From contig JBHGNT010000001.1 in the NCBI GenBank assembly GCA_043228905.1, forward strand, positions 4,960,001 through 5,024,000: DNA of 64,000 bases. The letters run 5' to 3'. This DNA is from Azolla caroliniana (Eukaryota; Plantae; Polypodiophyta). Below the pieces are notes generated by a model. It saw only the letters and a list, made by a program, of their open reading frames with translations. It was not told the origin of the DNA and made no database searches. Below are positions 33,729-62,568 of the stretch, one piece after another. The position numbers and the translations under genes were made by a program. Every line of letters starts with the position of its first letter. The first letter of the stretch is position 1.

Positions 33729-33765
<37 letters not shown>

Positions 33766-38504: not shown

Positions 38505-38547
<43 letters not shown>

Positions 38548-38906: not shown

Positions 38907-39699
38907 GGACCACTCAATCGGACGGCCAGATGTTGTACACGGAGACAAATCGGCCCCATGGACGTGGTGGATGAGGTGGGTCGGCACGCAATGGAGGCGG
39001 CCGACAAGAGCAGGACCGGAGGCATAGAGGTTGTGCCGACAGCAGTTCTGAACCCTCCACAAGCAAGGGGAGTCAAAGCAGCGCCGTGAACCGGCAAGGA
39101 AAGGTCGACACGGAATGCTGGTACTGTGGCAAAAAGGGCCACAGGGAAAGCGAGTGCTGGAAGAAGTGCGCCGATTCGGACAAATCCGAATATGGCAAAA
39201 CCGATCGGGAGAACCGGCAAAGTTCGCACTATGCGGAAGGATTGGAAGGATCCGGAACCGGGAAAACCGGTAAAGGGCCAACCTTCGTGATGAAGCACAA
39301 GGCTAACTCAATGAAGAAGACTACTTCTGGATTGGAGGAAGTATGGTACGTTGATTTCAGAGCGTCCAACCACATGACAAGCCATGAAGAGTGGTTCTCT
39401 TTTTTGGAGAAACCGGAACAACCGGGGATTGTCGAAACTGGAGATGACACCCCTCACCCGATTGTGCATGTTAGAGAAGTCCCTTTAAGCCATGTCGGAC
39501 AAAAGGGGAAGTTGATGAATGTACTACACGTTCCGACTATCACAAAGAACATGGTGTCAGTTGGGCAAATCGTCGACCAACGGATGTAGGTGCAGTTTAT
39601 GCACCTAGGGTGCTTCATCGAGGAAGGGGGCCGGATAATTGCGCAAGGGCGCAAAGACGGGAGGATGTTCATCCTCAACACTAATGATGTCGGCACTGC

Positions 39700-42600
39700 T
39701 GTCGCGTTGTTATGCGCGTGCGTGGAGAACGAGGCGGGACCACCGGGGTCTTGGACCGAGAAATAGTTGAGAAGGAGGAGAACAGAAAGGCACCGTGCGC
39801 ACTTGCACACGCACAGACACGGGAGCACACAAGAATCACAATCAAAACCACAACAAAACGAGACGACTAGAAGTTTGAGTATATGAACACGTAGGTATAT
39901 AAATATATATGTATATAACAAGACGGTTACAACTAACAGGCCGGCAAGGCAAACACCGCCGCCTGTTCACTCACACACACAAAAGAGCGGGATGGAGACT
40001 CTGCCGGAAGCACACGAGCGTTCCACGGAGCAGAGTCAGCCTCCCGAAAACCCGCGCAAAAATGGCTATGGAGAGTGGCAGAGGGGAAGGGCTCGGTCCC
40101 AGTCCGGCAACACTTCGTTCTCTCTAACCCCCTAATACCTTTTCATTCCTCTCCCTCTCTTTTATAGCCCAAGGAGGGAGGCCGTTATCATCCGTTACAT
40201 CACATTAATTCTCTGTCCTTTTGGACAGAGATACACCTCGATTCCCTCCCTATTGAATGCGTGCTACCTAGGATTTCCCCTCAACCGACTTGTACCTACT
40301 TACTTACCACACAACGAAAAGTATGCTCGCGTGTAAGGGCCGGTTTACACACGCTAAACTCGGTTTCCGCCTAGGGACGGTTTTCTTCACGACATCCGCC
40401 CCCACCTAACCGTGCATCCACCGGTATGTGCCAAAATTGGGCTTTTGCTGGAGAAAACTGGTCCATGCTTTACTCCTTGTCTTCCGGATCGTCATCCGCC
40501 TCGGGCCGCCCGTCGTCGTTGTCCATGCTTTCTAGATCCGGCTCACACTCGTGTCATTTCTTAAACGCTTTGACCCTCTTCCCCGCTACCGGTATTGCCA
40601 TCCTCGTACCGTCGAGCTCCGCAAGATGGTAGGTCCCGTTGTTGTTGGCGCCTATCACCATGTAAGGCCCGAACCACCTCCTTGCAAACTTCCGCGTTGC
40701 CCTGTGCTGGTTGTCGAGGCTGCTGTCATACACTAGGACCCAGTCGTCTTCCTCGATTTTCTTCGGTCGCAGTCGGTGAGTCCGGTCAAACCGGCCTTTG
40801 TTCTTCATCCTTGCCAACCGAAGCTTCTCTACGGCTCGTTCCACGTCCTCCGGCTTCGCTCCAGCTGTTGAATCCGTGCCGCTAGCAGCTCCTCCCGGCT
40901 CATCTCATCTCTCAAGTCCACCGTGGCCCATGAGGAGATGGTTCGCTCCGTTGGCATGATCGGCCTTTGTCCATATATAAGCTCTGCCGTCATGAACCCG
41001 ATTACCGAACTGTGCATAGTTCGGTCCGCCCACAAGGCATAAGGTAGCAGTCGCGACCAATTCCCGACTTGGCCTTCACACGCCCGTACTAGTGCTTTGA
41101 CGATTGGCCCGTGTCCGTGCTCCACCTTCCCGTTAGCCTCCGGATTGTACGTTGTGGTGAGCGAGAGATTGACCCCTAGTCGGTCAAATAGCTCTTCAGC
41201 CTCTTGCGCGTCCAACTCTCTGCGGTCAGCCACGATCTTTCCTACGCTCTCGTATCGACATATCACATCCTCGATCAGAAACAGGCACACAACCGTGGTT
41301 GTTTTGTTCTGCAGCGCTCGGCCTTCAACCTGGTTCGTCAGATCCTCCCAAGCCAGCACCAGATACCGCATCTGTCCTACCCCCATTGGCATCGTCACCA
41401 AATCCACCATCCATTTGAAGTGGAGAGTCGGAGGGTAGGTCGGTTGAAGCTCGTCCCGGTGTCGGACTATGGAGTGCATCTGATAGCTTTCGCAAGTCGT
41501 CACGAACCGATGCACGTCTCGGTACAGTCCTGGCCACCAGTACTTCCCATTTAGCTTCTCGAACGTGGCCCATGTTCTGGGATGTCCGGCCCAGGGACTC
41601 TCGTGGTAGGCCTCCAACAACTCCTCCTGTTCCTCCTTCTTCACCACCACTCGGAGCGGGATGCCGCCCTTCTTCTTCGGGTGCTTCCATATGTACCCGT
41701 CCCGAAGGAAGAATCGGTACGCCTTCTTCCGGATCCGGTTGGCCTCTTCCTTTGTCCATGCCGCGTCTGGTGTCATTGTTTTCAGGAGCTCGCTGATCTG
41801 GAGCCACTCCCCGTCATACTTGCTCTCGTCGAATTCGTTAAGCGCCGGAGTGCTCCTCTTTCTGGTTGTCACACATGCCGCCTCGAAGAAATCTACGCCG
41901 ACTTCCTCGTCCTCCAAAACCATGCCGTTCTCGTTTTCGAACCTCGCCCTTGAGAGCATGTCGGCCATGGCATTGTCTTTTCCGGAAATGTGTCGTATCT
42001 CCGGATTCAGGGACTTGATGTACGCTATCCACCTGAGCATTGCCAGTCTGGCGTCACGCATCTGGAAACCATGCCGAGAATCGGTAGGCAGTTCGTCTCG
42101 ATTATTACCTTTGTTCCGATCAGATAGTCTTTATCGGCCTTCACTGCCGAAACGATACCCCAGAGTTCGCGTTTAACCTGGGCATATCCTCGCTGTCGCT
42201 CACTGAGGAACTTCACGCTGAACCGGATGGGGAACCTCGTGCCAACGTTATCCTCCTGGTTGATCACCCATCCGATCCCAGTCGGACTCGTGTCTACGGT
42301 CACGTAAATCGGAGTGTCTTTGCCGTGGACAGCCTTTCGGAGCGCTGGTGTCGTGGCAAGTGCTTTCTTCATCTTTTGGACTGACTCCATATGTTTGTCT
42401 CCCCACTCGAATTTACGCCCTTTCTTCGGCAACCCATACAGCAGCTCCGCGACGTGGGCGTAATGCGGGGTCCAGATATGGTAGAACGAGCATGCTCCCA
42501 AGAATCTCCGAACCTCCGTAACCGAATTGCAGTCATGCTTCATTGCGGAGATGGCTTCCACCTTGGCCAGAGATAGTTTCCGACCGTATGGTCTGCATAG

Positions 42601-45600
42601 GTGCCCGACGACCATGATCTCTGATTGCCTGAAGGCTGATTTTTCCCCGGAGAAGGTGAGCCTCGTGCCTTCTAGTCTCTGCAGCACTTTCTCGCAGTCA
42701 TCGATGTGAGTCGCCACGAAATTCTGACATCCGTCTGGTCCGATTGTCTCGTCCTTTTCCTCCACTGGGAATCCCCTGATCGGGATGTCGTCTAAGAATG
42801 ACATGGTGATGTCCGGGATACAATCCCTGAGCACTTTGTTCATCGCGTTCACCATGTGAGTCACCAAGTTCATCCCTCCTTGTGGTAGGGTACACATCCA
42901 CACTAGGCCGAGAGGAGTCTGCATCGTTGTAATGTCTCTGCTCTCCATGGCTAGTTGGTACTAGTCGTACCCTGAGTACAGATCATCGACAGAGTAAATC
43001 GACCTTCCAGCCAAGGCCTCCACGAACTCGTCTATGGTCGGTCCGATTCCTGCTTACGGATGGTCACCTTGTTGACCGGTTGTGGGTCTTGAATGAAGCG
43101 CAGCGTGCCGTTCTTTTTCGGCACCATAAACCACCGAATCGAATACGGGGCACTCGACGGTTCGAGGATGCCTATCTCCACCTTTTGCTTCAGAAGCTCC
43201 ATCAACTTCCGGATGTGAGCTCTCGGCACCGGAATTGGTTTGAGATTCCACAGTACATGTGGTACCGTGAAGATCACCATTGGTTTGACGATCGTCGGGT
43301 CCACGCACCCGATCTCCCCCGGCGAGAACGCGAAGGCTTTCCCATGCCTTCCGAGCATTCTCCGAAACTTGTTCTCCTCCGCCAGCAGTAGAAAGCCACC
43401 CCCACCGACCCTGAGCTCCCGTAGCGTTATGTCGGTGAACCGGTGCCCTATGCCAGCCGGATTCTGTAAACTTGGGTCCGACGTGACCCCCTTTATCTGC
43501 TCCTCACTGCCCTCCGGCAAGGGTGCCTCGACCGGCTTCACCTTCCGGTCCACAGTCTTGTACTTTGTACCCACGCGGGCCGTCCTATCCAACCCGATCC
43601 TTTCCCCGAAGTCCGCGATGACTTCGTACATTCCCATTGATCCTACCGGAACAGTCCGGTCTTCTCTAAGGTCTTCACCGATCACCTTTCGCAACTCGCC
43701 CAAGGTGTCGTCAAACGAGACCGCCTCCACGGCGCCGCTGATCTCTTCGTCGGGGGAGAGGACTCCATATCCCTTGAGCCGCTCCTCCGCTCGCTTCCTT
43801 TCCCGGCCGTCGACGCCGGCTATAATACAACCTCCGTTTTCGGAGAACCAAAACTTCCTACCTACTGTACATGTGTGGGGTTCTTCCGGTACGTTCGGAC
43901 TACCGAGGCCCCACGCCTTGATAGCCCTCTCTAAAAATCCCCTCGGCTGTCGCCGCTGAGGGTCTTGCGATTCCTTTCATGGTTTGGACGTACGGTCATG
44001 AATTGGACGGAATGCCGACCGTCCTGGCTCTTGACGCCCGCGTACGCCGAACCGTTGTCCAGCACCTTCGTCTCCATGCATGCTGCCATAATGTATGGTT
44101 CGCCGAGAATCACCGGGTGCGAGGATGTTTCCTGCACGAAGAAATGTTGATCTATCTCGATGTCACCGACCTTTACGCGTATATTCGGGCACGCACCATG
44201 CAGCTCCTCCGTAGCACGCGTCGCCGCGCGTATCTTCCACCCATGCTTGGTGTTGATCGGCCATTTACCCCTCTTGTAGAAATCCATGGACATCAGGTTG
44301 ATTTCGGATCCATGGTCTACCAAGGCCACCACCGGTTCCTGGACATCTCCGATCTTAACAGGGGTCTCCGTGGTCGCTCTGGCCCAGTGCGGCCTCGAAT
44401 AGTGGCTCTCCGCCAACTCGTCTTCTAGCGCCATGTTGTTTATGTGTGTCGCTCGCACTTCCACTGGTTTCTCTGGCTCTGGCTCTGTCGATAGCCTCTT
44501 CCTCTTTACCAAGTCTACGATGGAGTCGAGGAACTCCTTCTTGGCGATCCCGAGCACTTCCCCTCAGCGATAGATCCACTTTGCTGTCGAGGATACGCTC
44601 CTCCAGGACCTTTCGCAGGTCCGTGGTCCTTTTGATTTCCGTGCTCAATCGGTACCCGGCCTTCTTGGCTTTATCCGGTGCGCCGGTCGCACCGGCCTCA
44701 TTCTGCCTTTGACCGAATCGGGTCTTGTACCATTGCGAGGGCCCGGCCCCTCCGGTTTTACTTACTCGCTTGTCTTCCACCAGAGCCTCGTAGTTCTGGC
44801 ATGCGGCTTCAACGAAGCCGATCTTCTCTTTGACCGGGTCACTCCACCCAGTTACCTCCCGGACCCGTTTTTCCGCGTGGTTCGCTTCTTCTTTCCTTAG
44901 TCGTGCGCTGGTGAGGCCTTCCAGCATCAACGGCCAGAATCCGGCTTCGTTCGTCTTCCGGGCCTCACCACCTCCGACTCGGATTCTAGCCGACGCCGAG
45001 TAGTGGACGGTCTCCGCGTGGCGAGCCGCCGCTTCTTCGATCAACCGTTTCATACCCCCTCGTCTGACATTCAGGTCGAGGGCCCTTCGGGTCTCGCTAG
45101 CGTGCACCCGACCGTTCCATAGGTACACCACGTTGGCTCTCATTGCCTCGGTGAAGTCCCCGCAGTCCTTCCGGACGTGGCCGACCATGTTGCACCACAA
45201 ACACCGGTTTCCAGCTAGAGGCCTTCGGTCATGGGCCTGTTCGCCACCGTCCCTCCGTGCCTGTGCAATCTGGAGGTCCTTTACCATCCTAGTCAGCTCC
45301 TTCGGTCGAACCTTTGACCATGCCGGTCGAAGTCGATCCGGTCTCGAGCCAGTCTCGGGTCTCTTCCCTTCGCGCTGGCGGGGTTGGCTCGAGTTTCCTT
45401 GCTGCTACAGAGCCCGCCCTTGTTGATCCTTTATCGACCCACACTCGCCGTTTGTCGAAACGGCCAGACTGTCTTCACCACGGCCCAGTCGGCCGTCAGC
45501 CCATCATCAGTCTCCAGCAGGAGACCCACTTGCTCCCGGTCCCTCGCATCCACCGACTTAACGAACAACAGAATGCGACTTGTGTCTAGTACGGTCCGGT

Positions 45601-45663
45601 CGAGCGCCGAAAGACACGCAAAGCGTTCTTCAAACTCCAGGAGGAGCACTGACGCGTTTCTCC
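39700..45663 (-). mobile_element. Decayed, 5'-truncated gypsy element of the 53549 family (copy 2)
   Basis: 3' LTR 39700-40394, PPT identical to that at 60061-60078; broken gag-PR, RT, RH, IN highly similar to ORFs 54366 and 56624. Confidence 0.93.
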
Positions 45664-46521
45664 GAGCTTGTCCATGCACCTCTCCTCCTCATAAAGGCGT
45701 ACGAGCATTTTGTGCGTGTGTTTGTGTCTTTCTTGTATGTTCGGCCGTCTTGTGGCGAGGGGACCGTTCGGGCTTGCCCATGCACCACTCCTCATCATAA
45801 AGGCATACGAGCATTTGTGTGTGTGTTTGTGTCTTCCTTGTACATTCGGCCATCTTGTGACGAGGGGACCGTTCGGGCTTGCCCATGCACCTCTCCTCCT
45901 CATAAACGCGTACGAGCCTTTGTATGTGTGTTTGTGTCTTCCTCGTACGTACGGCCGTCTTATGACGAGGGGACCGTTCGGGCTTGCCCATGCACCTCTC
46001 CTCCTCATAAAGGTGTACGAGCATTTGTGTGTGTGTTTGTGTCTTCCTCGTACGTACGGCCGTCTTGTGAAGAGGGGACCGTTCGGGCTTGCCCATGTAC
46101 CTCTCCTCCTCATAAAGGCGTATGAGCATTTTGTGCATGTGTTTTGTTTCTTCCTCGTATGTTCGATGTCTTGTGACAAGGGAGCGTTCGGGCGTGCCCA
46201 TGCACCTCTCCTCCTCATAAAGATGTACGGACATTCGTGTTTGTGTTATCGTCCCCTTGTGCGTTCATGTTGCGTGCTCATCTTGCTTGTACCCGTTTGG
46301 TCACTTGGCTCGTGCGGTGACCCCAAAAGGTCGACGAGTCGTGATCAATGAGAGCCACCGACCTCACAAAACAAAGGGCAACGAGACCTTGCTCGGGAAG
46401 GGGTCGGGAAGTAGTATTGTCGTAAAGCAAACCTCGGGTCTTCTCTATCCCTTGAGTACTCCCTAGTCCAAGACCCCCGTGGTCCCGCCCAAGTAACACA
46501 CGTGCGCGAAACTTCGCGACA
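45664..46521 (+). mobile_element. 3' part of a gypsy-family LTR carrying a 105-bp array
   Basis: Ends CTAGTCCAAGACCCCCGTGGTCCCGCCC...TTCGCGACA, the U5 motif shared with LTR ends at 54348 and 61766. Confidence 0.75.
45665..46240. repeat. 105-bp tandem repeat, about 5.5 copies
   Basis: GGC(T/G)TGCCCATG(C/T)ACC recurs at 45771, 45876, 45981, 46086, 46191. Confidence 0.93.
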
Positions 46522-46562
46522 CCGCTCAAGCGAAGCACGCACGCACGCACATCTTTGTGACA

Positions 46563-49500
46563 CCGTAAACCATCTATTGGAGTAGGGAGCATTGGACGGC
46601 TCAAGTATTCCCATCCTAACCTTTTCTTTTAGAAGCTCAATCAACTTCAGAATGTGAGCTCTTGGAGCCGGTATCGGCTTGAGGTTCCAAGGTACATGCG
46701 GCACCGTAAAAATCACCATCGGCTGTATTATCTTCGGGTCGGCACATCCAATCTCTTGTGGAGAGAAGGCAAAGGCTTTCCCATGTCTCACAAGCATTCC
46801 GCGGAACATTCTCTCCTCTTCAGGGAAAAGGAAATCTTCCCTTCCAACTTGTAGCTTCCCTTTTGTCTCTTTGGTGAAGACATGACCTATTGCCTTTGGA
46901 TCCCTTAAGCTCGGATCATTAGCAACTTCCTTCATCTTCTACCAGCTATCTTCTTGTAGCAGAACCGCAACTGGCTTGATCTTCTTATCCACCGTTTTAT
47001 ATTGTGTGTTGACTTCAGCTTCCTCCATCAAGATTTCTCGATGATATTCATCGATGATAGCTTACATGTTGACGGAGTTAACCGAAATCACATTTTGATC
47101 GTGAGAGTAGCTCAAGTCCACGACTTCCTCAATTTCACCGATGGTGTCGTTAAATGAGGCTTCCTCTAGAATATGAGACACAAATTCTTCTTCTTCGATT
47201 ATGCTTTCTTCTTTCAACATCTTCTCGAAGTCTTGTATCCGATGCTTGTCCTTCTTGTTGAGTAGTGTTAGGTTACATGTGCCACTAGGTGTCACACATG
47301 TTGCTTCTCCTTGCGATCCACTTATTTCGCTTCCTTGTGGGGACTTATGATTTCTCGGACTATTTGTGCCCCACGCTTCAATAGTCCGCTCTAAGGCTAT
47401 CTCGGTTCCTTTCGTGATTAGCCCGCACCGTAAGGAATTGAACAGATCTTTGATTGTCAAGGCTCTTGACTTGTGCGAAGGCCGCTCCATTATCGAACAC
47501 CTTAGTCTCCATCCGGGACGATGTGATATATGGTTGTCCTAGGATGATGGGATGTGAAGCCGAGTCTTGCACGAAGAAGTGTTGATCCATCTCCACATCT
47601 CCGATTGTGACTTTAACATTGGGGCAACCTCCGTACAAGTTTTCCGTGGCCTTCGTTGCCGCTCGTATCTTCCATCCGTGGTTTGTGTTGATCAGCCATC
47701 TTCCTTTCTTGTAGAATTCGGTCGATATGAGGTTGATCTCCGAACCATGGTCAATCAAGGCTACCACGGTCTCCTTCTTCTCTCCGATCTTCATCGGCGT
47801 CTCCGTTGTCGCTCTTGCCCAATGAGGCCGAGAGTAATGGTTGTCCGCCATCACTTCTTCTTCCTCCCCCTCTTCGGATCTTGCCATGGTTATGGCACTT
47901 GTTTTCACCTCTTCTTCATCCGATTGTTGCCGCTTCCGCTTAATCAAGTCCACAATAGTATCGTGGAACTCCTTCTTAGCGATCCCAAGTAGCTCTCTCA
48001 AAGTAAGGTCAACATGACTGTCTAAAACCTTCTCCTCAAGGACCTTCTGCAAGTTGGTTGTTTGTTCTATGTCTAACCTTAGCTTGTAATTCGGCGCCAC
48101 TCGTTCATTTCCTTTCTTCACAGATTCATCGACTTCCATCCGAGAAGGTTGGCTCGATCCACCGGGCTTCATGCTTGTTTCTCCTATCTCTTTTCGTGGC
48201 GTAGGTTGGGCTTGTCCTTCTTTCCCTACATTCCTTGTATTGTGACGCTTTGAGGTGCCATCTTCTTCACCGGTTCTTTTCCTCTTCTCTTCGACAAGAG
48301 CCTCATAGTTGTCACACACAACCTCCGCAAAGCTTGTGTTATTGTCGACTGGATCTGACCATCCGGTTACTCGTCGCACATTCCAATCAGCAAGTTTGAG
48401 ATCCTCCAAATCTATTTTTCCTTTCTTTTCACACTCGAATATTGTTGGCCAAAACCCAACTCCTGGCTTGATCGTCTTTAGATTCTCTCTTCCGACTCGT
48501 ATTCCCGCTGATGCGGCGTAGTGCATGGCTTCCACATGCCTTGCATCTTCCTCTTCCACGATCTTTTTCAGCCCGCCTCTTCCGAAGTTCACTCGTAGCG
48601 GCTTTCGAGTCTTGCTCGAGTGAATCATGTTGCCGTCCAAATAGACGACATTCTTGCGAATCAACAGCTTTGTCGATTAAAGCTTCTCGATCTCTCACCT
48701 TCAGCATGTATTCCACTACGGACACCATGCCTTTCGTTAATTCCTCTCCTTGAGTTCTGCTTGTTGAAGCCATTGTTACACTTGATATCCTTCCTACTGC
48801 CTCTTTCACGTTGGGTTCACCACTTAATTATGTCGTGAAAATCCGTCACTATGTGCAGATCGTGAGACGTAACCGCTGGGGTTCTGGACTAGAAGGATTT
48901 AGAGCAACATGTACAACACAAGAAAGTTTTAAGCATAAGACAAGTGGGAGAGACAAATCATTACTTTATTGCACAAGAAAATCGATTCTTTATAATTTCA
49001 GAATCGTGTTACAATGGGTTGGGTATAGAAATGAGAGATTAATTTTTCAAAGAAAGGAGCCAACAACCATGCAAGGAGTGGTCCGATATGAATACGAGAG
49101 ATAATTTTTGACAAGAAAGATCAAGTAAACAAAGCTAGGACTTTGATATCTATATGTGAGATAATTTGTTTCTCGAATCCGAGAGGGAAGAAGAAAGAAG
49201 GGAAAAAAAAAAACTAGGAGGGAAAAAAAAATGGGACATATATCTAGCTCCTCGTTGATCCTCCTCCACTTTGCATGCCCACTTTTAGTTGGATGGCCTC
49301 TATTTTTAGTTGCATGGCCTCTGCTTTTAGTTGCGTGCTTCCATTTTTAAATGCATGCCTTTTACTTTTAGTTGCATGGCCTTGGCTTTTGGTTGCATGC
49401 GATTGTCCGTATAATTCAGCCAAATGACACAATCATCCATAAAGTTTAGCCCGTGCACAATCTGTACGTGCGTCGCAACCAAACCGTAGACGCGTCCGCG

Positions 49501-51464: not shown

Positions 51465-53110
51465 TGTCGTGAAAATCCGTCACTATGTGCGGATCATGAG
51501 GCGGAACCGCCAAGGTCCTGGACTAGAAGGATTTAGTGCAACACGTACAACACAAGCAAGTTTTAAGCATAAGACAAGTGGAAGAGACAAATCATTTTCT
51601 TTATTGCAAAAGAAAATCGATTCTTTATAATTTCAGAATCGTGTTACAATGGGTTGGGTATGGAAATGAGAGATTAGTTTTTCAAAGAAAGGAGCCAACC
51701 ATGCAAGGAGTGGTCCGATATGAATACGAGAGATAATTTTTTACAAGAAAGCTCAAGTAAACAAAGCTAAGAGTTTGATATCAATATGTGAGATAATTTT
51801 ATTCTCGAATCCGAGAGGGAAGAAGAAAGAAGGGGGGGAAAAAAAGAAGGAAAAAAAAAACTAGGAGGGAAAAAAATGGGACATATATCGAGCTCCTCGT
51901 TGATCCTCCTCCCCAACTTTACTTTGCATGCCCACTTTTAGTCGGAAGGTCTCTATTTTTAGTTGCATGGCCTCTGCTTTTAGTCGCATACTTCCATTTT
52001 TAGATGCATGCCTTTTTACTTTTAGTTGCATGGCCTTGGCTTTTGGTTGCATACGATTGTCCGTATAATTGGGCCAAATGACACAATCATCCATAAAGTT
52101 TAGCCCGTGCGCAATCCGTACGTGCATCACAACCAAACTGTAGACGCATCAACGCGCAAAATTCTCGACCACGTAGTAGTGTACGCATCCACGCATGCGC
52201 ACGTCCCGACCGCGCTGTAGTGTACGCATCCACGCGTGCGCGCGTACAACCCGCACCGTATATGCATCCGCGCACAAAAGTCTCGTCCGCGCCGTATCAG
52301 CGCGCAAAAGTCTCGACCACGTAGTAGTGTACGCATCCACGCATGCGCACGTCCCGATCGCGCCGTAGTGTACGCATCCATGCGCGCGCGGGTACAACCC
52401 GCGTCGTATACGCATCCGCGCACAAAAGTCTCGTCCGCGCCGTATCAGCGCGCAAAAGTCTCGACCACGTAGTAGTGTACGCATCCACGCATGCGCACGT
52501 CCCGACCGCGCCGTAGTGTACGCATCCACGCGCGCGCGCGTACAACCCGCGTCGTATACGCATCCGCGCACAAAAGTCTCGTACGCACCGTAGTGTACGC
52601 ATCCACGCATGCGCACGTGCGCACACACGCGTCCGTCCAAAACGTCCATGCGTACGTCCACGCATGCGCACTTGCACATACACGCATCCGTCCGAAATTT
52701 GCACACACACGTACATCCGAAGAGGTCCATGCGCGCGTACTTCCGAAAACGTCCACACGGCCATGTAGTCGCGCATACGCCCGAAGTGCGCACACCACAT
52801 AATGTAGCCCAAGTCACCTTGAACATCCTATGCTCCACACATTGATAGAATGAATATGTTTTGGTTTCCCTTATATATTTTAAGTTCCAATGTTATCCTA
52901 TCTATGTGGGATATCTCACAATTTTGTCTTTTCTTTTCTTTTCCTCAAACTTCACACTCACATAACTTGATACTTGTTTATCCGTTTTATGCGTAGTAAA
53001 ATACGCTATGAAGCTCTTGAACACATCTATCTTTCCATATCCATATATTAAGCTAATCATAAATAATTATTTTATTAGTTTTCATATCGTGTGTGGAAAA
53101 CCACACGACA
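51465..53110 (-). mobile_element. Solo LTR (1646 bp) of the copy-3 subfamily
   Basis: Collinear with 48831-50779; TGTCGTG...CACGACA; 4-bp flanks GCGG/ACGG. Confidence 0.9.
52155..52600. repeat. 148-bp tandem repeat x3 in the solo LTR
   Basis: TCTCGACCACGTAGTAG at 52163, 52311, 52459. Confidence 0.9.
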
Positions 53111-54352
53111 ACGGACACTAACACCACGATCCGACCTCAAGTTGAGCTTGAGGGGGAGTGTTGAGCGAGCAAGCTCAACCGGATCTGGATTGGCATCCGG
53201 AAGGATGAGCCGGATTGGTATCCGGACGGTATCCGAAAACAACCGGCCGAATCGGAGAGCCGGATTCGAGCGGGAACCGGAAGCCTAGTAGTAGCCTAGA
53301 CTACTAGGTAATCATTGTCTCGTAGTTAGTGTCAGTCGCACGTGTGAGCATTGAAGTACCTGTCAGCACTTCTGTCAGTCCTTTATGGACTTGTATAAAT
53401 AGTGTTGTTTAGCACGTTGTATGTACAGAGAGTTTTAGAGTTAATTTTTAAATATAGTTTTATGTTCTACTCTCTCTGTCTCCTCTGTGTTTTTAAGCTT
53501 TTCCATTAAACCTTCATCTCATTTTCTGTTGTTATCCGGCTGAGCCGGTGTCGTGAAGAAAACCGTCCATAGGCGGAATCGGCGCACCAAGGCGTGGGAA
53601 CCGGTTCTTCACGCGCGCACGCTCCGAGTTGTACATAGAAACGAATTGAGAGGATAATCGGCAGGAACGGGCCCTAACTCAAGTGGAGACAAAGACCGCG
53701 CGAACAGTCTTTTCGGTCGCGCGCGCGAACTGTACGAGTCGGCGGCGTAACTACGCGGATCCGTGAAAAACGGAGCGGATCCCTGTCCAAAAGGGACAGG
53801 GAATAAAGCTGACACGACGGCCTGTTCGTCGGCCTATATAAGGAGCGGGAAAGAGCTGTTGCAGGGATCTGGCGCGGAGAGGACGAAGTGCTGTCGGACC
53901 GTTTCTGGACGCTTCGCTCCCTCTGTTTCCTTCCTTCTGGAGCTCCAAAGCTTTCTGTGCAGGGTTCCGGGGAGGCTCGCGCTGTTTCGAGGAACGCCCG
54001 AGTGCTTCCAGCAGCACCTCCGACCTGCTACCCCCCCCCATTTCCCCCGTTTGTGCGTCGAAGCGAACAGGCATCGGCATCTGTTCGCCGGCCTGTTCGG
54101 TTGCAACCAACCTGTGCCCCATCGGGGGTTGTAGTCGTGTTAGCCATTTTGTTAATACACATATTTAGTCATTCGCATCCGTCTGTGTCGGTGTCTGTTC
54201 GCGTTCTCCGTGCTGAAGGGCCGTGTCCCTGTGTATCCCCGGTCCTGCGTAGCCGGTTCTCTCTCTTTCTCCTCCCTCGCTTGCTCTTTGGTTCGAGACC
54301 CCCGCGGTCCCGCCTCTATTCCACACGCACTTGCGTAATATCTCGACATCTT

Positions 54353-54370
54353 TGGTGAACCCGACGTGAA
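54353..54370 (+). promoter_or_regulatory. Primer-binding site complementary to tRNA-Trp
   Basis: TGGTGAACCCGACGTGAA is the reverse complement of TTCACGTCGGGTTCACCA, the 3' end of plant cytosolic tRNA-Trp as I recall it. Confidence 0.85.
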
Positions 54371-54392
54371 AGAGGCGGCAGAAGAGCAGAAG

Positions 54393-56519
54393 ATGAGGGG
54401 GTCGGATCTCGCAGAGGCCATGGCTTCGGCCGTGGATCGGATCGTAAACGCGCGCGAGGGTACCGGTGCCCTCGACAGAGCTATTGAGGCGGTCGTCGGC
54501 ACGATCGGCCGGTTCGATGGGAGGGATGCCACGAAGTATCTGGCGTCCTACGGTGCAGAAATGTTGATGCGGGACATTCCGGAAGAAAGGCGTCTTGCCG
54601 GTTTTCCCCGAGTGGCAATACCGAGCATCCATGCGGAGGTGCTCGAGGTGCGGGCGGAGAGCCGTACCTGGGAGGAGTTCGAAGGTCGGCTCCTAGAGAA
54701 ATACGGGCTGGACGACGCGCTCCGGCTTTCGAAGCGAAGGTTCATGGAATGGGTGGAGTCCCCGGGGAAGGGAAGAAACGCGTCGGCACTCCTCCGGGAG
54801 TTCGAGGAAAACTTTGCGCGCCTTTCGGCGCTCGACCGAACCATCCTGGACACGAGCCGGGTCTTGCTGTTTGTCAAGTCGGTCGACGAGCGGGATCGGG
54901 AGCAAGTGGGCCTCTTGCTGGAAACCGAAGACGGGCTCACTACCGACTGGGCGGCTGTCAGGAAGGTCTGTGGCCGTTTCGACAAACGGCGAGAATGGGC
55001 GGATAACGGACCGACTGGGTCGGGCTCGGTCGCAGCAAGGAAGCTCGAACCAGCGCCACAGGTGCGCAAGGAAGAGACCCGGGAGTGGTTGGAAACCGGT
55101 TCGGCTTCGACCGGCGTAGTCAGAGGCTCAACCGGAGGAGCGGCGCTGGAGGAATTGACGAAGGCGATAAAGGACCTCCAAATCGCGCAGGCCCGAAGGG
55201 AAGGAGGCGAACCGGCTCGTGACCGACGGCCGGCGGCAGGAAACAGGTGCATGTGGTGCGATGAAGTCGGCCACGTTCGGAAGGACTGCGGCGACTTCGC
55301 GGAGGCGCTGAGGGACCGGGTGGTGTACCTGTGGGAAGGACGGGTGCATGCCAGCGACACCCGAAGGGCCCTGAGCCGAAACGACGGAAAGGGTGGTATG
55401 AAAAGGTTGATGGAAGAGGCGGCGGCCCGACACGCGGAAACCGTCCACTACTCGGCGTCGGCCGGCATTCGAGTCGGGGGCGGCGAGGCCCGAAAGGAAA
55501 GCAAAGCCGGATTCTGGCCGACGATGCTGGAAGGCCTTGCCGGTGCAGGGCTTAAAAGGGAGGAATCGGACCGTGCGGAGAAACGGGTACGGGAGATGAC
55601 CGGGTGGAGCGACCCGGTCGAGGAAAGGACGGGCTTCGTGGAAGCCGCTTGCCGGAACTACGAGGCTCTGGTAGAAGAGAAGCGGGTGGGAAAACCCGGG
55701 ACGACCGGGCCCTCACAACGATACGAGACCCGGTCCGGGCCACGACGGGACGAAGCCGGCAGGGCCGGTACGCAAGATAAACCCCAGAAGGGCGGGTACC
55801 GTCTGGGGACGGAGATAGAAAGAACCACGGACTTACGAAAGGTCCTGGAGGAACGGATCCTCGACAGCAAGGTGGAGCTGTCGCTACGGGAGGTGCTTGG
55901 AATCGCCAAGAAGGAGTTCCACGACTCCATCGTGGACTTGGTGAAACGGAAGAGGCTGTCAACGGAGACAGAACCGGAAAGACCGGTGGAAGTGCGGACG
56001 ACGCACCTAGACGACATGGCGCTGGGAGACGAGTGGGCGGAAAGCCACTATTCGAGACCGCACTGGGCCCGAGCGACCACGGAAACCCCGGTGAAGATCG
56101 GCGATGTCCAGGAACCGGTGATAGCTTTGGTGGACCACGGATCGGAGATCAATTTGATGTCCATGGACTTCTATAAAAAGGGCAAATGGCCGATCAACAC
56201 CAAGCACGGGTGGAAAATAAGGGCAGCAACGCGCGCCACCGAGGAACTGCACGGGGCCTGTCCGAATGTGCGAGTCAAGATCGGCGACGTCGAGATTGAC
56301 CAGCACTTTTTCGTGCAGGAGACGTCTTTGCATCCGGTCATACTGGGAGAGCCGTACATCACGGCGGCGCGAATGGAAACCAAGGTGCTGGACAATGGTT
56401 CGGCCTATGCGCGGGTCAAGAGCCAGGACGGCCGCCATTCGGTCCAGTTTTTGACGGTTAGGCCGAACCACGAGCGTAACCGCGACTCCCTCGGTTCCGA
56501 TAACCGAGAGGATTTTTAG
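54393..56519 (+). CDS. Gag-protease ORF (first ATG 54393; frame open from GTG 54366)
   Basis: Zinc knuckle CMWCDEVGHVRKDC; protease ALVDHGSEINLM...VILGEPYI. Confidence 0.9.
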   Translation: MRGSDLAEAMASAVDRIVNAREGTGALDRAIEAVVGTIGRFDGRDATKYLASYGAEMLMRDIPEERRLAGFPRVAIPSIHAEVLEVRAESRTWEEFEGRLLEKYGLDDALRLSKRRFMEWVESPGKGRNASALLREFEENFARLSALDRTILDTSRVLLFVKSVDERDREQVGLLLETEDGLTTDWAAVRKVCGRFDKRREWADNGPTGSGSVAARKLEPAPQVRKEETREWLETGSASTGVVRGSTGGAALEELTKAIKDLQIAQARREGGEPARDRRPAAGNRCMWCDEVGHVRKDCGDFAEALRDRVVYLWEGRVHASDTRRALSRNDGKGGMKRLMEEAAARHAETVHYSASAGIRVGGGEARKESKAGFWPTMLEGLAGAGLKREESDRAEKRVREMTGWSDPVEERTGFVEAACRNYEALVEEKRVGKPGTTGPSQRYETRSGPRRDEAGRAGTQDKPQKGGYRLGTEIERTTDLRKVLEERILDSKVELSLREVLGIAKKEFHDSIVDLVKRKRLSTETEPERPVEVRTTHLDDMALGDEWAESHYSRPHWARATTETPVKIGDVQEPVIALVDHGSEINLMSMDFYKKGKWPINTKHGWKIRAATRATEELHGACPNVRVKIGDVEIDQHFFVQETSLHPVILGEPYITAARMETKVLDNGSAYARVKSQDGRHSVQFLTVRPNHERNRDSLGSDNREDF
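56510..56516 (+). promoter_or_regulatory. Candidate -1 ribosomal frameshift heptamer G_GAT_TTT
   Basis: In phase just before the ORF1 TAG; -1 frame open into pol; same GGATTTTTAG in copy 2 (43931-43940, minus). Confidence 0.75.
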
Positions 56520-59500
56520 AGAGGGCTGCCAAGGCGTGGGGCCGCGACAGTCCGGACACCCCGGGAAAACCCCACACCTGTACGATAAAACCGAAGAAAC
56601 CTTGTACCATAGGTAGGGAATTTTTGTTCTCCGACAACGGAGCGTGTGCGATGGTCGGCATCGCCGGCCGAGAGAAAACAAAGACGGAGGCGAGACTTCG
56701 AGCGTGCGGAGTTCTCGGCCCGGACGAGGAAATCAACGGAGCCGTGGAGGCGGTCTCATTCGACGACACCTTGGGAATGCTGGGAAAGGTAGTCGAAGAA
56801 GGCCTTAACGACAACCGGACGATACCGGTGTGTTCCGAGGAGATGTACGAAGTCATCGCGGACTTCGGTCGAGGGCTCGAGTCAGTTCGGACGGCCCACG
56901 TAAACACCAAGTACAAGACTGTGGACCGGAAGGTAAGGCCAGTAGCGGCACCCTTACCGGAGGACAGCGCGTCGAGAATCAAAGGGGTTGCGTCAGACCC
57001 TAGTCTACGAGATCCGGCCTGCATAGGGCACACCTTCACTGACGAGACGCTCCGAGAGCTCAAAATCGGTGGGGGCGGGTTCCTACTGCCGGCGGAGGAA
57101 GACCGGTTTCGGAGAATGCTCGGAAGGCACGGGAAAGCCTTCGCATTCTCGCCGGAGGAAATCGGGTGCGTTGACCCAACGATCGTGGAGCCGATGGTGA
57201 TATTCACGGTACCGCATGTACCATGGAATCTCAAGCCAATCCCGGTTCCGAGAGCTCACATCCCGAAGTTGATGGAGCTGCTGAGGCAGAAAGTTGATAT
57301 GGGAATTCTCGAGCCGTCGAGCGCCCCATATTCGAATCGATGGTTTACCGTACCGAAGAAAAACGGTTCGCTGCGCTTCATCCAGGACCTGCAGCCGGTC
57401 AATCGAGTGACCATTCGGAACGCAGGAATCGGACCGACCATAGACGAGTTCGCGGAGGCCTTCGCCGGAAGGTCAATTTACTCGGTCGGGGATCTATACT
57501 CAGGGTACGACCAGTTCCAGCTGGCCGTGGAGAGCAGAGACCTTACGACGATGCGAACTCCCCTCGGCCTAGTTCGGATGTGTACACTGCCGCAAGGAGG
57601 GACCAACTCGGTGGCCCACATGGTGAATGCGATGAACAAGGTTCTGAGGGACTGTGTCCCGGACATTACCATGCCGTTTCTGGACGACATCCCGATCAAG
57701 GGATGCCCGGTGGAAGAAAAGGACGAGACGATCGGGCCGGACGGATGCCGGCGATTCGTGGCGACGCACGTCGACGACTGCGAGAAGGTGTTGCAAAGGC
57801 TAGAGGATGCGAGACTCACCTTCTCCGGGGAGAAGTCGGCCTTCGGGCAGTCAGAAATCATGGTGGTCGGACACCTGTGCGGACCATATGGCCGGAAACC
57901 GTCTCCGGCGAAGGTAGAAGCCATCTCCGCGATGAAGCCCGACTGCAGCTCGGTCACGGAAGTACGGAGATTCCTGGGGGCATGCGCGTTCTACCACATA
58001 TGGATCCCGCATTACGCACACGTCGCGGAGCCACTGTACGGGTTGCTGAAAAAGGGGCGAAGGTTCGAATGGCTAGACAAGCACGCGGAATCGGTCCGGA
58101 AGCTGAAAGAGGCCCTTGCAGCGGCACCGGCACTCCGGAAGGCGGTTTACGGGAAGGGTACCCCGGTATTCATAACGGTGGATACCAGTCCGACCGGGAT
58201 CGGATGGGTCGTGAACCAGGAAGACGAGGACGGCAATCGGTTTCCGATCCGATTTGGCGCGAAAGTCCTCAGTGAACGGCAGCGAGGGTACGCCCAGGTT
58301 AAACGCGAACTCTGGGGTATTGTTTCGGCGGTTAAGGCCGACAAAGACTACCTGATAGGGACGGAAGTGATCATCGAGACGGATTGCCTGCCGATTCTCG
58401 GTATGGTTTCCGGATGCGCGACTCCGGACCTGGCGATGCTCAGGTGGATAGCGTACATCAAGTCCCTGGACCCGGAAATACGACACATTTCCGGGAAAGA
58501 CAACGCCATGGCCGACATGCTTTCGAGGGCGAGGTTCGACGACGAGGGCGGCATGGTTTCGGAAGACGAAGAAGTCGGCGTGGATTTCTTCGAGGCGGCA
58601 TACATAACGACCGACGGGATGAGCACTCCGGCGCTTAACGAGTTCGACGCGAGCAAGTACGACGGGGAATGGCTGCAGATCGGCGGGTTTTTGAAGACGA
58701 TGACGCCCGATGCGTCATGGACGAAGGACGAGGCCAACCGGATCCGGAAGAAAGCATATCGATTCTTTCTCCGAGATGGGCATCTATGGAAGCACCCGAA
58801 GAAGAGGGACGGCGTCCCGCTCCGAGTGGTGGCGATGAAGGAAGAACAGGAGGAGCTACTGGCGGCCTACCACGACAGCCCTTGGGCTGGACACCGTGGA
58901 ACGTGGGCGACGTTTGAGAAGCTGAAGGGAAAATACTGGTGGCCGGGATTGTACCGGGACGTGCATCGGTTCGTGTCAACTTGCGAGAGTTGTCAGATGC
59001 ACTCGATAGTCCGACACCGGGACGGGCTTCACCCTACGTACCCTCCGACTATCCACTTCAAATGGATGGTAGATCTGGTGACGATGCCGATGGGGGTAGG
59101 ACAGATGCGGTATCTGGTCCTAGCGCGGGAAGACCTGACGAACCAGGTGGAAGGCCGAGCCCTTCAGAACAAGACGACCGCGGCCGTGTGTCGGTTCCTA
59201 GTCGAGGACGTGATATGCCGGTACGGGTGCGTCGGGAAGATCGTGGCTGACCGAGGGGAGTTGGACGCCGAAGAGGCCGCGGAGCTGTTCGACCGGCTTG
59301 GAGTCAAGCTCTCGCTCACCACTGCGTACAATCCGGAGGCGAATGGAAAGGTGGAGCGCGGACACGGACCGATCGTCAAGGCGTTGATTCGGGCATGCGG
59401 AGGTCAAGTCGGTAACTGGCCGCGGCTGCTACCTTATGCTTTGTGGGCAGACCGGACCACGCACAGTTCGGTAACCGGGTACATGCCGACGGAGCTCATG

Positions 59501-60007
59501 TTCGGCCAGAAGCCGATCATGCCGATTGAACGGACGATCTCCTCGTGGGCAACGGTCGACTGGAGGGACGAGATGAGCCGGGAGGAGTTGTTGGTCGCAC
59601 GTATACGACAGCTCGAGCGGAGGCCGGAGGATGTGGCACTGGCTACGGAGAAGCTCCGGGTGGCGAGGACAAAGAACAAAGCCCGGTTCGACCGAACGCA
59701 CCGGCTACGACCGAAGAAAATCGAAGAAGGTGACTGGGTGCTCGTCTACGACAGCAGCCTCGACAACCAGCACCGAGCCGCACGGAAGTTCGCACGAAGG
59801 TGGTTCGGGCCTTACGTGGTACGGAGCGCCAATGACAACGGGACATATCACCTGGCGGAACTTGACGGCACGAGAATGGCGATACCGGTTGCGGGGAAGC
59901 GGATCAAAGCGTTCAAGAAGCGACACGACGACGAGCCAGACCCGGCTCTCCTGGTCGGCAGTGACGAACGATCCGAAAATGAAGAAGAACCGACGGGCGA
60001 GGAATGA
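56510..60007 (+). CDS. Pol ORF (RT-RNase H-integrase) in the -1 frame, no chromodomain
   Basis: No stop from 56510; LPQGGTNS, PFLDDI, TVDTSPTG, YHD..GHRG..CESC, VADRGE, WFGPY. Confidence 0.93.
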   Translation, partial: GFLERAAKAWGRDSPDTPGKPHTCTIKPKKPCTIGREFLFSDNGACAMVGIAGREKTKTEARLRACGVLGPDEEINGAVEAVSFDDTLGMLGKVVEEGLNDNRTIPVCSEEMYEVIADFGRGLESVRTAHVNTKYKTVDRKVRPVAAPLPEDSASRIKGVASDPSLRDPACIGHTFTDETLRELKIGGGGFLLPAEEDRFRRMLGRHGKAFAFSPEEIGCVDPTIVEPMVIFTVPHVPWNLKPIPVPRAHIPKLMELLRQKVDMGILEPSSAPYSNRWFTVPKKNGSLRFIQDLQPVNRVTIRNAGIGPTIDEFAEAFAGRSIYSVGDLYSGYDQFQLAVESRDLTTMRTPLGLVRMCTLPQGGTNSVAHMVNAMNKVLRDCVPDITMPFLDDIPIKGCPVEEKDETIGPDGCRRFVATHVDDCEKVLQRLEDARLTFSGEKSAFGQSEIMVVGHLCGPYGRKPSPAKVEAISAMKPDCSSVTEVRRFLGACAFYHIWIPHYAHVAEPLYGLLKKGRRFEWLDKHAESVRKLKEALAAAPALRKAVYGKGTPVFITVDTSPTGIGWVVNQEDEDGNRFPIRFGAKVLSERQRGYAQVKRELWGIVSAVKADKDYLIGTEVIIETDCLPILGMVSGCATPDLAMLRWIAYIKSLDPEIRHISGKDNAMADMLSRARFDDEGGMVSEDEEVGVDFFEAAYITTDGMSTPALNEFDASKYDGEWLQIGGFLKTMTPDASWTKDEANRIRKKAYRFFLRDGHLWKHPKKRDGVPLRVVAMKEEQEELLAAYHDSPWAGHRGTWATFEKLKGKYWWPGLYRDVHRFVSTCESCQMHSIVRHRDGLHPTYPPTIHFKWMVDLVTMPMGVGQMRYLVLAREDLTNQVEGRALQNKTTAAVCRFLVEDVICRYGCVGKIVADRGELDAEEAAELFDRLGVKLSLTTAYNPEANGKVERGHGPIVKALIRACGGQVGNWPRLLPYALWADRTTHSSVTGYMPTELMFGQKPIMPIERTISSWATVDWRDEMSREELLVARIRQLERRPEDVALATEKLRVARTKNKARFDRTHRLRPKKIEEGDWVLVYDSSLDNQHRAARKFARRWFGPYVVRSANDNGTYHLAELDGTRMAIPVAGKRIKAFKKRHDDEPDPALLVGSDERSENEEEPTGEE

Positions 60008-60989
60008 AGACGGGCCGGTTTTCTCCGTCCCAACTCTCTTGGCGCATACCGGAGGATGCGCGGTTAGGTGGGGGCGGATGTCGTGAAGAAAACCGTCCAT
60101 AGGCGGAATCGGCGCACCAAGGCGTGGGAACCGGTTCTTCACGCGCGCACGCTCCGAGTTGTACATAGAAACGAATTGAGAGGATAATCGGCAGGAACGG
60201 GCCCTAACTCAAGTGGAGACAAAGACCGCGCGAACAGTCTTTTCGGTCGCGCGCGCGAACTGTACGAGTCGGCGGCGTAACTACGCGGATCCGTGAAAAA
60301 CGGAGCGGATCCCTGTCCAAAAGGGACAGGGAATAAAGCTGACACGACGGCCTGTTCGTCGGCCTATATAAGGAGCGGGAAAGAGCTGTTGCAGGGATCT
60401 GGCGCGGAGAGGACGAAGTGCTGTCGGACCGTTTCTGGACGCTTCGCTCCCTCTGTTTCCTTCCTTCTGGAGCTCCAAAGCTTTCTGTGCAGGGTTCCGG
60501 GGAGGCTCGCGCTGTTTCGAGGAACGCCCGAGTGCTTCCAGCAGCACCTCCGACCTGCTACCCCCCCCCATTTCCCCCGTTTGTGCGTCGAAGCGAACAG
60601 GCATCGGCATCTGTTCGCCGGCCTGTTCGGTTGCAACCAACCTGTGCCCCATCGGGGGTTGTAGTCGTGTTAGCCATTTTGTTAATACACATATTTAGTC
60701 ATTCGCATCCGTCTGTGTCGGTGTCTGTTCGCGTTCTCCGTGCTGAAGGGCCGTGTCCCTGTGTATCCCCGGTCCTGCGTAGCCGGTTCTCTCTCTTTCT
60801 CCTCCCTCGCTTGCTCTTTGGTTCGAGACCCCCGCGGTCCCGCCTCTATTCCACACGCACTTGCGTAATATCTCGACACCGGTTCTGTCTGACGCTTCCG
60901 CACTTTAACATTCACAGGGGGGTGCTTGAAGCAAAGGGATTTGTGTAGAATAATGTTTGTGAGATTGGTGCCACACTCCTAAGCACCGT

Positions 60990-61766
60990 TGTCGTGAGGA
61001 TTTTCGGCCATGGTGAGAAAACTCGAGCGGAATGAATGAAGCGAGATGTGCAACATTGCACATATACTTAGGAAAATTGTAACATATGAGTAAATAGACA
61101 AATGTAAGAAGGAAAAGTAAAGTGTGGGGTGTAAATGTGATGTGCACTTTGTAGACTAGAGGAAACTACATGAAGAATGGTGTAGGGATTAGTGGCCATT
61201 GAGTGTGAATGTGAGAGGCAAGAGAGTTAAAGGCCCACGGATTTAAGATCAAGGCCAAATATTCCTCATTGAAAGAAGGGGATTTGTCCTCTCCTTTTGT
61301 AATGTGCCTTACCCCTTATTCCTATAAAAGGGAGTGAGGGGTCTCTTGTGAAGCGGTTGCCTATTTTGAGTGAGGAGAGGCTTCCACTTTTTGTTTTTCT
61401 TTGGGTTGCCTATTTGAGTGAGGAGAGGCTTCCACTTTTTGGGTTTCTTTGGGTTGCCATTAGGGATGCAGAATTTTGGGTTTTAGGATCGTTTTAGGGG
61501 TTTCATTCGTCTTCTTCTTCTTCTTTTCCCCTATCCGGTTAGGGTTTCATCTAGAGGGTTTACATTCGGCCTACACGGCCACGGTTGTAATTGGTGTGGT
61601 GCTTTCCATAATGTATCTTGTCTTGTTTAGATCTTATTCTCTTGAATCTTAATCTTTCTCTTCCTTCTCGGTTGAACTCCCAAGCTTCTCTCCCTCCTCT
61701 TACTCCCTAGTCCAAGACCCCTGTGGTCCCATCCTATCTGACACGCACACGCAGATTTCCGCGACA
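60990..61766 (+). mobile_element. Older solo LTR of the same gypsy group (777 bp)
   Basis: TGTCGTGAGG...CCGCGACA, TATA-like CCTATAAAAG at 61321, shared U5 motif, flanks CCGT/CTGC. Confidence 0.8.
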
Positions 61767-62568
61767 CTGCATGATGGGGGATTGTAGGGTTATGAGACGG
61801 AGATGAGTGAGGAAGTTGGGGAAATGAAGATGGTGGTGTTGAGGTGAGGGGTGATCCCAATATTAGTAGGAGAAGGCGTAGAGATTGCGATTGGGAGGTA
61901 GTAATTTAATGCAAGGTAGAGGAAAGGGAGGTGGGGTGATATGGGGTGTGGATGTGATAATGGTTGTCAAGCATGGGACCCATGAGATCAAGAATACGTT
62001 ATCATTTTGGTAGGCAACAAAATACCAAAGGGGGGTCGTTGGACAATTACGTGTTAATGTGAAGTAAGTGAGAAATATGAAAAGAGATCGTGATTGATTT
62101 TCCTTATAATCGGTAAGTGTACTGTGTAACATATATAAATCAATTCTTTTTCTACGAGGACACATCATCAAGGGACAACTTCCCAAATGGACGAGACATA
62201 TACATCACGTGACACAATCTCCTACTGCCACATCAGAATGCTTTTGTATTTTTGCTATCGCACAAGACACGACGCTGACGCAATACATGAGCGCAGGAGT
62301 GGCAATATCACACGACTCCACGATGTCCCTTGGACATCCAAAAGGAAGCGAAAATACATTTTGTGTTGTGCAGTGGTAGTACTCTCTCTCTCTCTCTCTG
62401 TGTCACATGAATGAGGCTGCCTACATTAAGTCGTAGGTTCAGCAAAGTGGGAAATATCTGGGAAGGCTTCCACTTGCAATGCGGTTCAAAAAATTCAGGC
62501 CATTTCATCCGCATATAGCCAGATTAGGTCAATAGCATTGAATTATTGTTGTTGTGCCCTCCCATTCA

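What the first reader, a model, noticed from the sequence alone, without database searches (positions are those of the whole stretch)
39696..61770. Gypsy family with 4-bp target duplications always centred on CpG
All ten LTR flanks of this family that I could read are N-CG-N or its deamination product N-TG-N: CCGG/CCGG (53545, 60879), GCGG/ACGG (51461, 53111), CCGT/CTGC (60986, 61767; both derivable from CCGC), CTGC (39696), CCGC (50780), CCGC (46522), CCGT (46563). The 4-bp length is fixed by the empty site GAGCCGGTTC in the copia D 5' LTR. Plant LTR elements normally make 5-bp TSDs with weak preference, as the copia insertions here do. Inference: a CpG-recognising, possibly methyl-CpG-guided, integrase without a chromodomain, which would steer copies into other CG-rich transposons.
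Basis: partly seen in the sequence, partly recalled or inferred. Interest (0 to 1): 0.78.

Follow-up and report, generated by a model that had tools for sequence, protein, structure and literature searches.

The report
CG-targeting Phygy-type gypsy retrotransposons
These plant retrotransposons nearly always land on a CG base pair step and duplicate four bases of the target, a real habit already described for the moss Phygy lineage to which they likely belong; whether DNA methylation guides them is untested.

Summary
The ten flanks read as stated (8 NCGN, 2 NTGN) but are seven independent insertions from three or four LTR families of one lineage. The 4-bp length is fixed by intact copy A (53549-60878, CCGG/CCGG) and the empty site at 32744. 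Relatives agree: 19 of 25 flanks in 80 related loci are NCGN, 4 more are one C-to-T step away, none has a TA centre (background CG 3.4%). The read consensus before the LTR ends in ACGT in 3 of 4 runs. The property is published: Neumann et al. 2019 list Phygy elements with a 4-bp NCGN TSD, tRNA-Trp primer site and no extra domain, all seen here. The tree test against moss Phygy could not be run. Most likely the integrase itself reads CG in a sharply bent 4-bp target. No methyl-reader domain was found and methyl guidance is untested (about 20%). What is added: an intact copy with identical LTRs, a conserved -1 frameshift site, candidate specificity residues, and relatives in a fern and liverworts.

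The parts
53549..60878 (+). Copy A: intact Ty3/gypsy element, 7,330 bp
   Evidence: LTRs 800/800 identical; two open ORFs; domains
53549..54348 (+). A 5' LTR, TGTCG...CGACA
54353..54370 (+). Primer binding site TGGTGAACCCGACGTGAA after a 4-nt spacer; tRNA-Trp assignment recalled
   Evidence: found in 35 of 80 related loci; exact complement of the CCA-ended small RNA listed as miR894
54339..56519 (+). ORF1 gag-protease (stop to stop; first ATG 54393), with DUF4100
   Evidence: protease motif LVDHGSE read from the sequence
56510..56516 (+). Predicted -1 frameshift site GGATTTT just before the ORF1 stop
   Evidence: GGATTTT in 26 and GGATTTC in 4 of 35 rows from related loci, -1 frame open
56504..60007 (+). 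ORF2 pol: RT, RNase H, integrase; no chromodomain, no extra RNase H
58838..60004 (+). Integrase: HHCC, intact DDE, SH3-like C-terminal domain with GPY; Glu141 at the PFV Ala188 position; conserved Gln311-His312
60067..60078 (+). Polypurine tract GGTGGGGGCGGA
   Evidence: same in B and relatives
60079..60878 (+). A 3' LTR
53545..53548 (+). TSD of A, left copy CCGG
60879..60882 (+). TSD of A, right copy CCGG
32744..32753 (+). Empty site GAGCCGGTTC in the 5' LTR of copia D
39700..45661 (-). Copy B, 5' part deleted; 3' LTR 39700-40394; flank CTGC at 39696
45662..46521 (+). LTR remnant H with 105-bp tandem repeats; flank CCGC at 46522
46522..46562 (+). Probable LTR end G (41 bp, motif only); flank CCGT at 46563 inside the RT gene of C
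46563..50779 (-). Copy C, 5' half; 5' LTR 48831-50779; flank CCGC at 50780 in the RT gene of copia D
51465..53110 (-). Solo LTR F (family of C); flanks GCGG/ACGG
60990..61766 (+). Solo LTR I; flanks CCGT/CTGC, in CG-poor host DNA
32395..60916 (+). Copia D, the host of the nest; 5-bp flanks CGGGG/GGGGG

Best explanation
These are copies of a chromodomain-less Ty3/gypsy lineage, likely Phygy, that make 4-bp target duplications centred on CG, and the integrase itself likely reads that CG step with no need for methylation. Shown: the 4-bp stagger, the CG centre in the window and in relatives, the conserved primer site, the gag-protease plus pol layout and the absence of a chromodomain. Inferred: a 4-bp stagger needs a sharp kink at the central step, which favours pyrimidine-purine steps as in foamy virus and MLV; added base contacts would then narrow this to CG. 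Candidates are the conserved loop of the SH3-like domain (Gln311, His312, Lys317) and the unusual acidic residue (Glu141) where retroviruses have a small neutral one. NTGN and NCAN flanks are likely later decay of methylated CG. Because young transposons hold two to five times more CG than host DNA in this window, the element would drift into them passively.
For: Window: 7 events, 6 with NCGN, all 7 CG or one deamination away. Relatives: 19 of 25 flanks NCGN, 2 NTGN, 2 NCAN, 2 other; P 2e-23 at background 0.034; 0 of 25 TA although TA is twice as common (0.070); T at the joined base in 1 of 25. Reads: loose-end consensus before the LTR start ends in ACGT in X21 (946 reads), X2 and X4 (27 contigs each). 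Phygy profile matches: 4 bp NCGN, tRNA-Trp, no extra domain. Retroviral 4-bp integrases select a central YR step and avoid T at position 0, largely independent of chromatin. Drosophila ZAM-group elements target CGCG and ZAM integrase binds it directly; that flies lack CpG methylation is recalled. No chromo, MBD or SRA match at E up to 1. Copies A and I sit in CG-poor 100-200 bp surroundings (0.01-0.02).
Against: No moss Phygy sequence was available, so the defining tree test is missing. A is 7,330 bp, below the moss range of 7,656-9,968. Four of 5 primary insertions lie in copia D: P 0.08 by CG count if copia E is counted as part of the target, 0.006 by length, and about 0.003-0.02 if the younger copia E is left out (hand arithmetic), so CG supply may not explain all the clustering. 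The candidate residues are untested; in PFV the Ala188 position contacts bases outside the TSD, not the centre. Two of 25 relative flanks (TCCA, ATCA) fit neither CG nor its decay. The read evidence is a plurality consensus (agreement 0.37-0.41), not a frequency, and X14 did not list that row.
Confidence: 0.7

Rival explanations
1. The integrase prefers methylated CpG (the methyl group eases the kink or is contacted directly), which actively guides copies into silenced transposons without a chromodomain.
For: 6 of 7 window events lie in other transposons; clustering may exceed CG supply (and hand arithmetic). At least 8 of 25 relative flanks are recognisable transposon DNA with only this window as reference. 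4 of 25 relative flanks and 2 of 10 window flanks show CG decay. Phygy copies nest in Tcn1 in moss and are enriched at centromeres of a liverwort.
Against: No methyl-reader domain. Decay may follow insertion. Nesting is ordinary in large plant genomes, the window was chosen after the fact, and short-read contigs favour repeated flanks. CG-centred targeting exists in flies. No paper testing this turned up.
Confidence: 0.2
2. A sister or convergent lineage, not Phygy proper (for example closer to the DUF4100 gypsy elements of basidiomycetes), with the same target rule.
For: Atlas neighbours of gag and integrase include basidiomycete clusters at 0.96-0.97; no named moss protein was among the listed hits; size is below the moss range.
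Against: Four independent traits match Phygy; named relatives are liverwort and fern proteins at 50-70% identity, and Phygy is reported in a liverwort.
Confidence: 0.12
3. Only general bendability (any YR step) plus CG-rich surroundings; no true CG readout.
For: All 4-bp retroviral integrases studied favour central YR; the nest is CG-rich (0.05-0.10).
Against: 0 of 25 TA centres although TA is twice as common as CG; 19 of 25 CG at 3.4% background; 186 moss elements listed as NCGN.
Confidence: 0.03

Closest known systems
Phygy lineage, non-chromovirus Ty3/gypsy (REXdb; Neumann et al. 2019, PMC6317226)
   Same: 4-bp NCGN TSD, tRNA-Trp-type primer site, no chromodomain or extra RNase H, coding sequence filling nearly the whole internal region
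   Different: Described from Physcomitrella only and with ORF layout 'ND'; here a vascular-plant-like host (fern inferred, not tested), an intact gag-protease / -1 / pol layout, and 7.3 kb against 7.7-10.0 kb
Drosophila ZAM/Tirant subgroup (PMC2527525, PMC5408687)
   Same: Gypsy-type integrase with intrinsic preference for a CG-centred palindrome
   Different: Target CGCG(CG), insect errantiviruses with env; here only the central CG is fixed and ACGT is the commonest site
PFV and MLV integrases (PMC4422553)
   Same: 4-bp stagger, central YR step, T avoided at the joined base; PFV intasome chains are the top fold matches
   Different: Their preference is weak and covers all YR steps; residue 188 is small and neutral, here Glu or Asp
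TatI and Selgy (same table)
   Same: 4-bp TSD; TatI also uses tRNA-Trp
   Different: TatI carries an extra archaeal-type RNase H, Selgy uses tRNA-Ala; neither is listed with NCGN

Membership tests
Phygy | Clusters with moss Phygy in RT-RH-INT trees (primary definition) | not testable with these tools
   REXdb FASTA and element table too large to read; no named moss protein among listed homologs
Phygy | 4-bp TSD | tested here: met
   CCGG/CCGG with empty site; 5- and 6-bp registers fail
Phygy | NCGN target motif | tested here: met
   6 of 7 window events, 19 of 25 relative flanks, read consensus ACGT
Phygy | tRNA-Trp primer binding site | tested here: met
   TGGTGAACCCGACGTGA in A and 35 of 80 loci; complement of a CCA-ended plant small RNA; the Trp identity itself is recalled, no call names it
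Phygy | No chromodomain, no extra RNase H, no extra ORF; coding region spans nearly all of the internal part | tested here: met
   no PF00385 among the 120 listed pol homologs; ORFs cover 54393-60007 of 54349-60078
Phygy | Length 7,656-9,968 bp (descriptive; the paper calls size of little value for classification) | tested here: inconclusive
   A is 7,330 bp
TatI | Extra archaeal-type RNase H domain | tested here: not met
   Only the RT-linked RNase H is found in pol
Selgy | tRNA-Ala primer site, about 5 kb | tested here: not met
   Primer site and 7.3 kb size differ
Chromoviruses (Tcn1, Galadriel, CRM, Reina, Tekay) | Chromodomain at the integrase C-terminus | tested here: not met
   Only an SH3-like domain and a short acidic tail
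Methyl-CpG-guided integrase (proposed) | Preference for methylated over unmethylated CG | not testable with these tools
   No methylome or assay available; no reader domain

The most novel reading that the evidence does not exclude
The Phygy-type integrase senses 5-methyl-CpG at the kinked centre of its 4-bp target through its catalytic core and SH3-like loop, a reader-free way for a retrotransposon to aim at silenced DNA, shared across mosses, liverworts and ferns.
Probability: 0.2. Interest if true: 0.72.

Novelty: new member of a known kind. Interest (0 to 1): 0.3.

Why it matters
The target rule is in print, but in the papers I could search only as one sentence and one table cell, with no mechanism. 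Neumann et al. call Phygy the one exception among plant LTR lineages in preferring a sequence. Copy A has identical LTRs and open reading frames, so it gives a ready integrase for asking how an LTR integrase picks CG and whether methylation matters. If methylation did matter, it would be a new route to heterochromatin targeting. If not, it is still a model for base readout by a 4-bp-stagger integrase.

Tried and rejected
No host genome is held, so no genome-wide logo. Viral contigs held no relative; six exact primer-site matches there were neither tRNA genes nor LTR ends. No tRNA gene in the window. Cluster look-up of 10 homologs gave no organism names. Three homolog searches listed Riccia and Ceratopteris but no moss protein among the rows shown (120 of 440, 120 of 261, 24 of 24). 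The first read laying did not isolate flanks. Earlier findings of this scan: none. The fold search confirmed an integrase fold but did not map PFV Arg329 onto the model; the active-site loop 163-174 has pLDDT under 50. Passages of PMC7466625, PMC5014426, PMC2864245, PMC11358816, PMC12810828 and PMC12477314 gave nothing on TSD sequence of this lineage. Rejected: 5-bp TSD; pairing CTGC at 39696 with CTGC at 61767 as one TSD (they border different LTR families, and 61767 lies outside copia D); TatI, Selgy and chromovirus membership.

Full report
Setting. The window is plant DNA with two long PPR genes and several LTR elements; a fern host is my inference from the style of the PPR repeats and was not tested. 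No host genome is held. The finding lies in a nest inside a copia element (copia D, 32395-60916).

Anatomy. Self-comparison and translation resolve seven insertions of one gypsy lineage. A (53549-60878, +) is intact, with LTRs identical over 800 of 800 bases. B (39700-45661, -) has lost its 5' part by a deletion that joins it to LTR remnant H (45662-46521, +). H sits in a 41-bp probable LTR end, G (46522-46562), which interrupts the RT gene of C (46563-50779, -). F (51465-53110) and I (60990-61766) are solo LTRs. A encodes gag-protease with DUF4100, then RT, RNase H and integrase. The pol of A is 72-85% identical to B and 47% to C, so this is a lineage of several families.

Check of the observation. 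A has CCGG on both sides and the other LTR of copia D keeps the empty site GAGCCGGTTC. For A, F and I the 4-bp register gives 0, 1 and 2 mismatches against 3, 4 and 5 for 5 bp. The three copia elements have 5-bp TSDs. Ten flanks are seven events; six have an NCGN flank, P 5e-8 at the local CG frequency of 0.044 and 6e-6 at 0.10.

Independent test. The integrase fetched 80 of 228 confirmed stretches from metagenome contigs. The primer site TGGTGAACCCGACGTGA follows the LTR end in 35 of these 80 loci. A search for LTR ends and starts found 57 end places (37 followed by the primer site) and 63 start places (52 after the polypurine tract). Of the 20 and 11 left I dropped six: one contig end without letters, one primer-site spacer cut by a contig end, one duplicated LTR end, two repeats inside an LTR and one variant polypurine tract; one doubtful start was kept. 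Of the 25 flanks, 19 are NCGN, 2 NTGN, 2 NCAN and 2 other (TCCA and the doubtful ATCA); background CG is 0.034, P 2e-23. Counting the five dropped rows that have letters gives 20 of 30. No centre is TA, though TA is twice as common as CG. Read outward from the LTR, the first base is A 16, C 8, T 1, G 0; ACGT is the commonest 4-mer (7). These contigs are collapsed short-read assemblies and favour repeated flanks. Public reads laid on the polypurine tract and LTR start left loose ends at the LTR boundary whose consensus ends in ACGT in three of four runs (946 reads in X21, 27 contigs each in X2 and X4; agreement 0.37-0.41; no such row among those shown for X14). This is a plurality, not a frequency, and X2 may be the window's own source.

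What is known. Neumann et al. 2019 (PMC6317226; passages, sections 8 and 9, supplement 5 whole) write that, except for Phygy elements, which prefer NCGN, plant LTR TSDs are highly variable. Their table gives Phygy as 186 elements, TSD 4 bp (100%) NCGN, 7,656-9,968 bp, tRNA-Trp 81%, no extra domain, ORF layout not determined. A matches on TSD, motif, primer site and domain content; it is 326 bp shorter than the smallest moss copy. The Trp identity of the primer is recalled; a paper table (PMC5846777, passages) shows its exact complement as an abundant CCA-ended small RNA labelled miR894. Additional files 1 and 3, which hold per-element TSDs and the protein sequences, were too large to read, so the defining tree test is open. 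Named homologs are from Riccia and Ceratopteris. Phygy is reported in a liverwort, enriched at centromeres (PMC12885004, passages), and nested in Tcn1 in moss (PMC6911290, passages). TatI, Selgy and chromoviruses fail on extra RNase H, primer and chromodomain. Searches for 'NCGN' with 'retrotransposon' (2 papers), 'Phygy' (18 papers, none on a fern genome by title) and methylated-CpG insertion preference showed no mechanistic study; the library lacks most subscription papers.

Mechanism. The integrase has HHCC, an intact DDE and an SH3-like C-terminal domain, with no chromo, MBD or SRA match at E up to 1. The model (mean pLDDT 76.7) matches PFV intasome chains best. Serrao et al. (PMC4422553; passages and section 14) report that 4-bp integrases kink the target at a central YR step and avoid T at the joined base, largely independent of chromatin. 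Both traits are seen here, but narrowed to CG, which calls for added base readout (inferred). At the PFV Ala188 position, small and neutral in retroviruses, this lineage has Glu in 36 and Asp in 3 of 40 sequences; the C-terminal loop holds Gln311 (39 of 39), His312 (34 of 39) and Lys317 (37 of 38). These are candidates only; Ala188 contacts bases outside the TSD, and I could not map Arg329. ZAM-group elements target CGCG and ZAM integrase binds that sequence (PMC2527525 and PMC5408687, passages), in an insect that I recall as lacking CpG methylation.

Methylation and steering. Transposons here hold CG at 0.05-0.10 per position against 0.02 in host DNA, so a CG-seeking element would drift into them passively. 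Four of five primary insertions are in copia D: P 0.08 by CG count with copia E included, 0.006 by length, and about 0.003-0.02 if the younger copia E is left out (hand arithmetic). So a regional or methylation effect is not excluded, but one chosen nest cannot show it. A and I lie in CG-poor surroundings. At least 8 of 25 relative flanks are recognisable transposon DNA. Decayed CG in flanks shows methylation at some time, not before insertion.

Verdict. A real and strong signal, already described for the lineage this most likely belongs to. New member of a known kind; interest 0.3. The methyl-guided reading stays at about 0.2 and would deserve about 0.7.

Noticed in passing
window 56510-56519: GGATTTT directly before the gag-protease stop, with pol open in the -1 frame; the same heptamer in 26 of 35 rows from related loci (GGATTTC in 4). 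A predicted -1 frameshift that would fill the 'ND' ORF layout of Phygy.
   Followed up: partly
window 54353-54370: The primer site is the exact complement of the pan-plant small RNA annotated miR894, which ends in CCA and looks like a tRNA 3' fragment.
   Followed up: partly
window 53111 and 60989; related loci: The base next to the LTR is never G when read outward (0 of 25) while the mirror position has it 6 times (Fisher P 0.02); both mismatched TSD pairs in the window show G to A there. The junction CA-G makes a new CHG site that may decay fast; B keeps its G.
   Followed up: partly
reads on window 53549-54400: Four reads in X21 join an LTR end to an LTR start with ACGT between, suggesting head-to-tail copies at a reused site; few reads from a Hi-C library.
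   Followed up: no
window 937-6392 and 33464-38906: Two young intact copia elements (ORFs of 1,373 and 1,381 aa, LTRs 99.7% identical, TSDs CATCT and GGACC); the first ends in TA instead of CA on the right.
   Followed up: partly
window 7067-9283 (+), 13815-17126 (-): Two long single-ORF PPR genes with a 306-bp repeat period, 57% identical, facing each other; decayed PPR pieces near 11476-11858 and 29188.
   Followed up: no
window 62605-64000: Gene that looks like a UDP-glycosyltransferase by recalled motifs (no Pfam match for the two pieces), about 840 bp downstream of solo LTR I.
   Followed up: no
window 45661/45662: A deletion joins B to H and, with the loss between 39699 and 50780, removed the integrase and part of RT of copia D.
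   Followed up: partly
window 45663-46247, 49491-50420, 52145-52592: Tandem arrays inside the LTRs: 105-bp units in H, 148-bp and about 190-210-bp units rich in CG/CA steps in C and F.
   Followed up: no
window 13-429 (-) and 21929-22727: A fragment of an unrelated gypsy RT (31% to A) and an old LTR 72% like copia E with 54-bp repeats.
   Followed up: no
window 54339-56516: The gag carries DUF4100 and its nearest Atlas clusters after a plant one are basidiomycete, hinting at a fungal sister group; a lead only.
   Followed up: no
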